Below are positions 45,110 to 45,507 of a stretch of DNA of 64,000 nucleotides, piece after piece; position 1 is the stretch's first letter; every line of letters starts with the position of its first letter. The stretch covers positions 42,842,001-42,906,000 of the forward strand of contig CM060732.1 in the NCBI GenBank assembly GCA_030704615.1. Direction: 5' to 3'. Below the pieces are notes generated by a model. That model saw only the letters and a list, made by a program, of their open reading frames with translations. It ran no database searches and was not told the origin of the DNA. Source of the stretch: Takakia lepidozioides. Taxonomy: Eukaryota; Plantae; Bryophyta. The translations under genes were made by a program, and so were the position numbers.

Positions 45110-45507
45110 TGTCCAAGGCATCGTGGACACAACCATTCTCCGATAGGAACCTCCTCAAGTGGCGGTATCAAGCATCCCATGTGCCACCCCTTGAGCATTT
45201 GTCACACACCAACATGGTTGCGGCGCCACCTGCATGCCCACATAGCATGCAACGCAAACCTGCAGGTACCACTGCAAGGTTGGGATCTATCCTCCCATCC
45301 ACATGTGGAAGGTGACATGGCGCACAATTGCGCACATGGTCCTTCCATACCATGCCATCTCGACCCTCCAAAATCAATACTCTTGAAGGCAACACCTCCC
45401 TGACCCTTAGAATCACACGTCCTGCTATGACATCCAACGTCGTAGGTGTTGTCTGCTGCAGATATACATAGTCCCCAGGGTGGAAATGCCGAACACTTGG
45501 CCGATAT
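45110..45507 (-). pseudogene. Integrase C-terminal region ending in a PHD finger
   Basis: FHPGDYVYLQQ...CMLC...[33 protein letters not shown] (C4HC3), with one 1-nt frameshift in a G run. Confidence 0.9.

What the first reader, a model, noticed from the sequence alone, without database searches (positions are those of the whole stretch)
45110..45260. PHD finger at the integrase C-terminus of the same element: a chromatin reader plus writer in one retrotransposon
Seen: a complete C4HC3 PHD (CMLC...CDKC...WHMGC...WLCPRC) follows the integrase tail and precedes the PPT, in the position where chromoviruses carry a chromodomain. Established: PHDs commonly read the H3 tail, and animal DNMT3 pairs its catalytic domain with a PHD-like ADD domain. 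Inference: the PHD may steer integration by histone state and work with the element's DNMT as a self-contained targeting and methylation module.
Basis: partly seen in the sequence, partly recalled or inferred. Interest (0 to 1): 0.75.

Follow-up and report, generated by a model that had tools for sequence, protein, structure and literature searches.

The report
PHD-tipped integrase in methyltransferase retrotransposon
A broken copy of a plant jumping gene carries a PHD finger at the end of its integrase and, in a separate reading frame, a DNA cytosine methyltransferase domain; the finger likely anchors new copies to histone H3 while the methyltransferase likely marks the element's own new DNA, so the two are probably separate accessories rather than one reader-writer module.

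Summary
The PHD is real (minus strand 45251-45118, split by a 1-nt frameshift). The window copy is decayed and doubly inverted, but contigs of the same species label and metagenome loci restore the order gag-protease-DNMT-RT-RNaseH-integrase-SH3-PHD. It has the A-coding-B-A-B repeats of Klebsormidium KnitGypsy-Dnmt3. PHD and DNMT co-occur across the clade: 19 of 19 spanning loci have the DNMT, and 38 of 39 complete DNMT-bearing Pol proteins have the PHD. They do not look like a DNMT3/ADD-type module. In the land-plant subclade a conserved TAG-CAR stop puts the DNMT on the Gag frame and the PHD on the RT-integrase frame. Elsewhere the DNMT moves or is lost while the PHD stays on integrase. The PHD keeps the H3 Ala1/Arg2 pocket, lacks a K4me3 cage and has lost most K4-binding acids. 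Histone binding, insertion bias and DNMT activity are untested. Gypsy-DNMT, PHD-bearing transposons and chromodomain+DNMT elements are published. I found no report of the PHD+DNMT pairing, the leaky stop, or the algal-type relatives that add a TaqI-fold adenine methyltransferase. This scan earlier noted DNMT-like domains in Gypsy elements on other DNA, without a PHD. Verdict: new variant of a known kind.

The parts
45118..45251 (-). PHD finger (C4HC3), split by a 1-nt frameshift near 45186
   Evidence: other copies have no gap
45103..45117 (-). four residues and stop ending Pol ORF2; the PHD is the C-terminal domain
   Evidence: close relatives mostly end 1-14 aa after the last Cys
45252..45507 (-). 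integrase C-terminal SH3/Tudor-like beta-barrel and linker to the PHD
   Evidence: model of relative P0001; VIA Z 6-7.4 to SH3/Tudor/KOW barrels, foamy-virus integrase 4bac Z 6.1, rmsd 3.0, 66 aligned; Z under 8 shows only a common fold
42870..44376 (-). rest of RNase H, integrase H2C2 and DDE core; inverted block with stops and frameshifts
   Evidence: Pfam RT_RNaseH 3.5e-25, rve 5e-14; joints in other copies
41739..42869 (+). start of ORF2: reverse transcriptase and first residues of RNase H; 3 internal stops
   Evidence: RVT_1 5.5e-32
41736..41744 (+). conserved in-frame TAG followed by CAA CCA, a likely leaky (readthrough) stop between DNMT and RT
   Evidence: context from PMC2754532
40420..41387 (+). 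Dnmt3-like C5 cytosine methyltransferase; motifs I, IV (PCQ), VI (ENV), VIII and X present; broken by stops in this copy
   Evidence: PF00145 6.3e-5 on one piece; relative's domain hits DNMT3A/B first (E 6e-8)
39660..40010 (+). aspartic protease (LDSG)
   Evidence: Asp_protease_2 E=0.013; same domain in L025 E=2e-4
37510..38760 (+). gag with zinc knuckles; the 5' A repeat is missing upstream in this copy
   Evidence: Retrotrans_gag 3e-4; no self-match of the repeats upstream
44850..44856 (-). polypurine-tract-like run directly before repeat B1
   Evidence: same run in related loci
44761..44846 (-). repeat B1 (86 nt), ends in CA
44411..44758 (-). repeat A2 (348 nt, TG...CA)
   Evidence: A-coding-B-A-B in L011, L014, L046, L048, L061
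44377..44410 (-). first 34 nt of repeat B2, cut by the inversion
45508..45559 (+). rest of repeat B2; the element's 3' end (CA), abutting the ORF1 of an L1 LINE

Best explanation
This is a decayed, doubly inverted copy of a green-lineage Ty3/Gypsy retrotransposon of the KnitGypsy-Dnmt3 type whose integrase ends in an SH3-like barrel plus a PHD finger; the PHD likely stays on the mature integrase and tethers the integration complex to nucleosomes through the free H3 N-terminus (Ala1/Arg2), while the DNMT is encoded on the upstream Gag-protease frame, is likely made in excess over RT-integrase because of a predicted leaky TAG, and likely methylates the element's own cDNA in the particle. Shown here: domain order, PHD in frame with integrase, conservation, co-occurrence, the conserved stop, split direct repeats and 4-bp target duplications. 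Inferred: readthrough, H3 binding, tethering, DNMT activity and substrate. The likely effect of an unmodified-H3-type reader is general chromatin anchoring with at most a weak avoidance of H3K4me3 promoters, not guidance of the DNMT.
For: PHD in the integrase frame with at least 7 of 8 ligands in 59 of 72 loci that cover it; 15 have all 8 and no stop. Undamaged two-ORF element L025: ORF1 1369 aa gag-PR-DNMT, one TAG, ORF2 1047 aa RT-RH-IN-PHD. In 21 of 22 DNMT-RT linkers (21 loci plus the window; about six independent subfamilies) a TAG/TAA is followed by CAA/CAG, and the 22nd has TGA-CGG, against 33 of 1033 other in-frame stops. TMV-type CAA-UYA and TRV-type UGA-CGG contexts give readthrough in plants (PMC2754532, passages). 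0 of 49 proteins with RT at least 58% identical to L025 carry a DNMT in the same ORF, and 27 of 27 proteins P0181-P0207 have PR+DNMT and no RT. PHD pS/pN is 0.62/0.33 against SH3 0.73/0.32 and RT 0.90/0.24 for L025 vs L061; the median over 60 distant pairs is 0.79/0.32. The 60 shown of 79 PDB hits include CHD4, KMT2C/D, DPF, KDM5 PHD1, ATXR5, BHC80, BAZ2, UHRF1 and AIRE, and no ING, BPTF or TAF3. Residues equivalent to KDM5A D312, P331, G333 and W335 (H3 R2/A1 pocket; 10.1101/715474, passages) are kept in 38, 39, 37 and 39 of 40 close PHDs. With a query holding neither PHD nor DNMT, the PHD stays at the integrase end while the DNMT lies after RNase H in 41 of 47 and before RT in 4 of 47, and is absent from the full-length Pol proteins P0303 and P0347.
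Against: No binding, insertion-bias or activity data exist here. Only 31 of 123 human PHD constructs bound H3 on arrays (PMC6979384, passages). The land-plant PHDs have lost the acids equivalent to KDM5A E305 (A in 29 of 40), D315 (S/Q in 37 of 40) and D292, and are net basic (mean -1.2 against +3.4 in the distant group), which may weaken or abolish H3 binding. In one subfamily an ATG follows two codons after the stop, so re-initiation or a separate RNA could replace readthrough. The isolated KnitGypsy-Dnmt3 DNMT gave no methylation in yeast, called inconclusive by the authors (PMC5890265 section 10). The tight co-occurrence (38 of 39) still allows some functional coupling. The structure model is modest (pLDDT 61, pTM 0.32) and the RT tree is a quick search without bootstrap.
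Confidence: 0.6

Rival explanations
1. Reader-writer module: PHD-integrase brings the DNMT to the insertion site, or the PHD regulates the DNMT as ADD does in DNMT3, so the element methylates its landing site according to histone state.
For: Near-obligate co-occurrence: 19 of 19 spanning loci and 38 of 39 complete DNMT-bearing Pol proteins. In the algal-type group the DNMT sits directly before integrase in one ORF, so an uncleaved DNMT-IN-PHD protein is conceivable. The PHD is of the unmodified-H3 class, as ADD is (ADD specificity recalled, not from a call).
Against: A stop codon and the whole RT-RH-IN separate the two in the window's subclade. Minimum spacing elsewhere is 481 aa. The DNMT is relocated or lost with the PHD unchanged. 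A related DNMT occurs on a Copia-type protein with no PHD seen, though that protein is truncated (P0224). The PHD is a canonical C4HC3, not the GATA-plus-PHD ADD.
Confidence: 0.15
2. The PHD is a structural or non-histone adaptor of integrase (DNA or RNA binding, intasome assembly, or binding a host protein), with no role in reading chromatin marks.
For: Loss of the K4/R2 auxiliary acids and net basic charge in 40 close PHDs. Most human PHDs did not bind H3 on arrays. Nine distinct 3' flanks show no sequence motif.
Against: The essential R2 aspartate and the A1 pocket P-x-G-x-W are conserved in both close and distant groups. The best solved single-PHD fold matches are H3 complexes (ATXR5 5vab, BAZ2A). 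The position matches that of chromovirus chromodomains.
Confidence: 0.22
3. The PHD fragment belongs to another element or a host gene and is only juxtaposed by rearrangement or misassembly.
For: PHD and DNMT lie on opposite strands in the window, with inversion breakpoints between them.
Against: Contigs of the same species label join the blocks in the canonical order. 19 metagenome loci are colinear. The split B repeat is completed across the breakpoint.
Confidence: 0.02

Closest known systems
KnitGypsy-Dnmt3 of Klebsormidium nitens (de Mendoza et al. 2018, PMC5890265)
   Same: Ty3/Gypsy with a Dnmt3-like DNMT in the polyprotein region; DIRS-like A-coding-B-A-B repeats with Gypsy domains; streptophyte hosts.
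   Different: The text names no PHD (0 hits in main text and 3 readable supplements; Fig. 4c and the main supplementary PDF could not be seen and may show one). It reports the DNMT in the same ORF as RT, whereas here a conserved stop separates them. Relatives here reach liverworts, Sphagnum, Coleochaete, Closterium and the chlorophyte Hariotina. No K. nitens sequence was available for direct comparison.
EpiLTRs and DAM-LTRs (bioRxiv 10.64898/2026.05.21.726589)
   Same: One retrotransposon carrying a chromatin reader plus a C5-DNMT and, in the algal-type relatives, an adenine methyltransferase fold.
   Different: EpiLTRs use a chromodomain, a DNMT4-related enzyme and a PF05869-type DAM. This clade uses a PHD, a Dnmt3-like enzyme and a C-terminal TaqI/METTL5-fold domain that Pfam does not label. 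The window's subclade has no adenine methyltransferase.
Chromoviruses (e.g. MAGGY; cited in PMC6673714 and 10.1101/2021.11.30.470311)
   Same: Reader domain at the integrase C-terminus behind the SH3-like barrel.
   Different: PHD instead of chromodomain; predicted ligand is the H3 N-terminus rather than H3K9me; targeting unproven; split repeats instead of paired LTRs.
PHD-bearing transposons: CR1 LINEs, REM1, Chlamys PLEs, Rehavkus, cnidarian PYGO-type fusions (as cited in PMC6673714, PMC8557442, 10.1101/2021.11.30.470311)
   Same: PHD as a common accessory domain of transposable elements.
   Different: None is described with a DNMT in the passages read. Here the PHD is fixed at the integrase end of a whole Ty3 clade and is not of the aromatic-cage type.
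DNMT3 ADD-catalytic pair
   Same: Dnmt3-like catalytic domain (best PDB hits) and an unmodified-H3-type zinc finger in one genetic unit.

Membership tests
PHD finger (PF00628) | C4HC3 ligands with canonical spacing and the pre-terminal Trp | tested here: met
   both halves hit PF00628; whole domain in L025 E=2.6e-10; all 8 ligands in 43 of 72 loci
H3K4me3-reading PHDs (BPTF/TAF3/ING type) | aromatic cage of 2-4 residues | tested here: not met
   Gly two residues before the His in 39 of 40, Leu before the first Cys pair in 33 of 40; that these are cage positions is recalled; cage definition
unmodified-H3 PHD readers (KDM5A PHD1/BHC80/AIRE/ATXR5 type) | Ala1 pocket (L309, P331, G333, W335) and Arg2 aspartate (D312) | tested here: met
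   37-40 of 40 at each position, numbering
unmodified-H3 PHD readers (KDM5A PHD1/BHC80/AIRE/ATXR5 type) | acidic K4/R2 auxiliary residues (E305, D315, D292) | tested here: not met
   mostly A, S/Q and A in 40 close PHDs; E305 kept in 9 of 20 distant ones
unmodified-H3 PHD readers (KDM5A PHD1/BHC80/AIRE/ATXR5 type) | measured binding to the H3 tail | not testable with these tools
   needs peptide binding assays
Ty3/Gypsy retrotransposons | order gag-PR-RT-RH-IN with DDE integrase | tested here: met
Ty3/Gypsy retrotransposons | TG...CA ends and short target-site duplication | tested here: met
   4-bp duplications at two distinct insertions (L011/L061, L014); only the 3' end survives in the window
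Ty3/Gypsy retrotransposons | two identical full LTRs | tested here: not met
   split repeats A-coding-B-A-B in 5 loci with both ends
KnitGypsy-Dnmt3 type | Dnmt3-like DNMT with catalytic motifs in a Gypsy polyprotein region | tested here: met
KnitGypsy-Dnmt3 type | DIRS-like split direct repeats | tested here: met
   definition from the Fig. 4 legend
KnitGypsy-Dnmt3 type | DNMT in the same ORF as RT and RNase H | tested here: not met
   stop between them in the window's subclade; met in sister rows P0241, P0260, P0267, P0316
KnitGypsy-Dnmt3 type | RT and DNMT group with the K. nitens sequences | not testable with these tools
   no hit was named as Klebsormidium
chromovirus | chromodomain at the integrase C-terminus | tested here: not met
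   ORF2 ends a few residues after the PHD; no Chromo hit in L025 ORF2 or in 20 clade proteins scanned
EpiLTR | chromodomain + DNMT4-related DNMT + DAM | tested here: not met
   PHD and Dnmt3-like DNMT; no adenine methyltransferase in the window's subclade
DNMT3 ADD module | GATA-like plus PHD-like zinc domain directly N-terminal to the catalytic domain in one chain | tested here: not met
Phygy clade (Neumann 2019) | RT phylogeny and NCGN target preference | tested here: inconclusive
   0 of 9 distinct 3' flanks are NCGN; no Phygy reference sequence was available

The most novel reading that the evidence does not exclude
An old, green-lineage-wide Ty3 clade uses a PHD on its integrase to land on nucleosomes lacking H3K4 methylation and pre-methylates its cDNA with a Dnmt3-like enzyme packaged at Gag stoichiometry, tuned by a leaky stop in land plants. 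In algal-type members it adds a TaqI-fold adenine methyltransferase behind the PHD. This would be the first PHD-directed integration system and a PHD-based epigenetic toolkit assembled independently of the chromodomain EpiLTRs.
Probability: 0.3. Interest if true: 0.8.

Novelty: new variant of a known kind. Interest (0 to 1): 0.52.

Why it matters
PHD fingers are common in transposons, but I found no paper showing that one steers integration. This clade has relatives annotated as ordinary genes in Marchantia polymorpha, where chromatin maps exist (recalled), so the question becomes testable. It extends Gypsy-Dnmt3 from one alga to liverworts, peat moss and chlorophytes. It predicts, through the stop codon, that the methyltransferase is a high-copy particle component. 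It also warns that many annotated 'PHD-type' and DNMT gene models in bryophyte genomes are transposon fragments.

Tried and rejected
No whole genome is held for this window, so copy number, insertion ages and flanking chromatin could not be studied; summed contig depth is far above the LINE flank but is not a copy number. No RNA holder was listed; runs X8 and X9 are only guessed to be RNA, so expression is untested. The DNMT-PHD complex was not folded and gives no verdict. The protein atlas did not answer. Three papers were not held; REM1 and CR1 PHDs are known to me only through citing passages. My first PHD regular expression had a wrong spacer and scored 0 loci (that column is void); a second counted only stop-free copies (16 of 72); one search is the count used. 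Of 34 loci with at least 4.3 kb upstream, 25 have the DNMT. Of the 9 without, L004, L046 and L048 are internal deletions with repeat A next to RT, L062 and L063 jump from protease to integrase, and L024, L055, L066 and L072 are unresolved; 46 shorter loci were not counted. Of 12 PHD-bearing representatives without a DNMT hit, P0333 and P0364 show a degenerate DNMT trace and most others start just before or after RT, so only P0303 and P0347 are good DNMT-less cases. Rejected: that the B-A-B repeat is an assembly artefact (it is family-wide); that the stop at 41736 is decay; that the 62-nt inverted repeat marks a DNA transposon (it is the split B2); a CG or NCGN target preference (0 of 9 flanks). 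Among 45 close pairs of copies the PHD decays neutrally (pS 0.036, pN 0.056). Whether the double inversion is genomic or an assembly error was not resolved. Literature searches for the PHD+DNMT pairing, for this family in bryophytes and for the readthrough motif in it gave no description. Subscription papers, figures, bioRxiv supplements and the main supplementary PDF of PMC5890265 were not visible and may bear on the novelty claim.

Full report
Observation. Translating 44400-45700 shows the PHD on the minus strand in two frames. The frame that holds the integrase tail runs through CMLC and CDKC; the next frame carries WHMGC and WLCPRC and stops four residues later (coordinates 45251-45118, stop ending 45103). 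Each half hits Pfam PF00628 on its own (positions 1-21, E=0.0065; positions 23-47, E=2.7e-5).

The copy is scrambled. gag, protease, DNMT and RT are on the plus strand up to 42869. The rest of RNase H and the integrase core are on the minus strand 44376-42870. The integrase tail, PHD, purine run and repeats are on the minus strand 45507-44377. The copy also has many stops. Other copies repair the logic. Contigs join 42869 to 44376 in 3 of 4 runs and 3 of 4 runs, one contig links the integrase core end to the tail, and 28, 23, 7 and 1 contigs in four runs lack the 1-nt gap near 45186. The PHD therefore belongs to the DNMT-bearing element. The host is not given; the closest named relatives of the tail are Marchantia proteins at 80-82% identity, so a bryophyte is likely (inference).

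Family architecture. A search with the tail and first PHD half returned 85 proteins, 70 with PF00628, including Marchantia, Calypogeia and Sphagnum entries; a Coleochaete entry was named. That query is biased towards PHDs. Eighty metagenome loci were fetched. Of 34 with at least 4.3 kb upstream, 25 carry the DNMT, and all 19 that hold both gag/protease and RT have it between them; the nine without are deletion derivatives or unresolved. In 59 of 72 loci covering the PHD, at least seven ligands lie in the integrase frame. An unbiased query (RT-RH-IN core only) gave 150 representatives. Of 39 DNMT-bearing ones long enough to show it, 38 end in a PHD; of 90 with neither tail nor DNMT, only 3 have a PHD, placed elsewhere. 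A quick RT-RH tree of 94 rows (all rows with tail, DNMT or PHD plus 14 ordinary Ty3 rows; other rows left out) groups the 77 tail/DNMT rows at SH-aLRT 99 (no bootstrap). Named members also include Closterium and the chlorophyte Hariotina.

Repeats. The odd repeat-end/repeat-start junction in the window is the family's normal 3' end. L011, L014, L046, L048 and L061 read A-coding-B-A-B, with TG...CA termini and 4-bp target duplications at two distinct sites. The legend of Fig. 4 of de Mendoza 2018 gives the same DIRS-like repeat structure for KnitGypsy-Dnmt3 (section 9).

PHD and DNMT are not one module. Locus L025 has two open frames separated by one TAG: gag-protease-DNMT (1369 aa) and RT-RH-IN-PHD (1047 aa). 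The same stop is in the window at 41736, followed by CAA CCA. A TAG/TAA followed by CAA/CAG lies in 21 of 22 linkers examined, the last having TGA-CGG (about six independent subfamilies), against 33 of 1033 other in-frame stops. Both contexts are known plant readthrough signals (PMC2754532, passages). None of 49 close RT proteins has a DNMT in its ORF (many are members of shared clusters), and 27 protease-DNMT proteins lack RT. In the wider clade the DNMT lies after RNase H in 41 and before RT in 4 of 47 proteins, never closer than 481 residues to the PHD, and P0303 and P0347 keep the PHD without a DNMT. The DNMT tree separates most pre-RT from post-RH copies. The PHD travels with integrase; the DNMT is a movable accessory. 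Their strong co-occurrence leaves some room for coupling.

What the PHD probably binds. It is conserved like its neighbours (pS/pN 0.62/0.33 against 0.73/0.32 for the SH3 barrel). The solved relatives shown are of the unmodified-H3 class, and the single-PHD fold matches are ATXR5, BAZ2 and UHRF1. Mapped on KDM5A PHD1 (10.1101/715474, passages), the Ala1 pocket and the essential Arg2 aspartate are kept in 37-40 of 40 close PHDs and no aromatic cage is present. The acids equivalent to E305, D315 and D292 are lost and the domain is net basic; distant members are more acidic. The best reading is an H3 N-terminus anchor with weak or no K4 discrimination in land plants. Only 31 of 123 human PHD constructs bound H3 on arrays (PMC6979384, passages), so binding is not assured. 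Nine distinct insertion flanks show no sequence preference; chromatin preference could not be tested.

Mechanism, most likely (0.6). Translation gives abundant Gag-protease-DNMT and, by readthrough, a little full polyprotein. Protease frees RT and integrase-SH3-PHD (processing is established for Ty3 elements in general, recalled). The DNMT methylates cDNA in the particle, as de Mendoza et al. propose for such enzymes (discussion), although their K. nitens domain was inactive in yeast, inconclusively (section 10). The PHD tethers the integration complex to nucleosomes. Rivals: non-histone adaptor (0.22), true reader-writer module (0.15), chance juxtaposition (0.02).

Prior knowledge and novelty. 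Gypsy-Dnmt3 is published (PMC5890265: passages, sections 9-11, three supplements searched; 'PHD' 0 hits; Fig. 4c and the main supplementary PDF unseen). PHDs are called widespread in retrotransposons (PMC6673714, PMC8557442, passages; 10.1101/2021.11.30.470311, passages and section 10). Reader plus DNMT plus DAM in one element is described as EpiLTRs with chromodomains (10.64898/2026.05.21.726589, passages and section 7). Neumann 2019 has no PHD or methyltransferase mention (PMC6317226, passages). Searches found no description of the PHD-DNMT pairing, the bryophyte family or its leaky stop. Earlier scan notes describe dead DNMT folds in Gypsy Pol and DNMT-bearing Copia on other DNA, without a PHD; they prompted my check for degenerate DNMTs. 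Nineteen of the 150 representatives combine DNMT, PHD and a C-terminal domain that folds like M.TaqI/METTL5 in a model of one member.

Verdict. Real feature, interpretation partly supported, new variant of a known kind, interest 0.52. The concept of a chromatin reader plus writer in one retrotransposon has precedent. The value here is a broad, testable clade for PHD-directed integration, an expression logic that separates writer from reader, and an unlabelled three-domain version in algal-type relatives.

Noticed in passing
proteins P0066, P0070, P0071, P0073 and 19 of 150 representatives: Algal-type relatives have RT-RH-DNMT-IN-SH3-PHD plus a second small barrel and a C-terminal domain with an adenine-methyltransferase fold (METTL5 Z 13.0, rmsd 2.8, 147 aligned; M.TaqI Z 12.7, rmsd 3.1, 155 aligned) that Pfam does not label: a PHD version of the EpiLTR toolkit. 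Activity untested.
   Followed up: partly
window 44752-44767 (-); L011, L014, L061: The B1|A2 junction is the element's 3' end, two bases, then its 5' end, like an LTR-circle junction. How a DDE-integrase element with A-coding-B-A-B repeats regenerates its ends is unexplained.
   Followed up: partly
window 42869/42870, 44376/44377, 45507/45508: Two adjacent blocks are each inverted in place with about 84 nt lost; genomic rearrangement or assembly error not resolved.
   Followed up: partly
protein P0224: A Copia-type polyprotein (gag-pre-integrase, rve, retroviral SH3) carries a related C5-DNMT upstream of its protease region.
   Followed up: partly
proteins P0354, P0356, P0376: A separate Ty3 lineage has a PHD between RNase H and integrase; P0356 also has a PF05869 Dam domain before RT.
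   Followed up: partly
window 20772-32407 (-): Another LTR element with about 1.1-kb LTRs, gag, protease, a broken RT and two extra ORFs (250 and 863 aa) without Pfam hits.
   Followed up: no
window 45560-51697 (+): L1-type LINE (zinc-knuckle ORF1, endonuclease, RT, zf-RVT) abutting the element's 3' end; the Gypsy copy appears inserted at the start of its ORF1.
   Followed up: partly
window 34069-35388 (+): Stop-broken ORF pieces resembling a pogo/Tigger DDE transposase (recognised by eye, not searched).
   Followed up: no
window 14400-17100: Repeats whose period and look suggest a pentatricopeptide-repeat gene (label recalled, not tested).
   Followed up: no
L075 linker: One divergent relative uses TGA-CGG, the other known plant readthrough context, between DNMT and RT.
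   Followed up: partly
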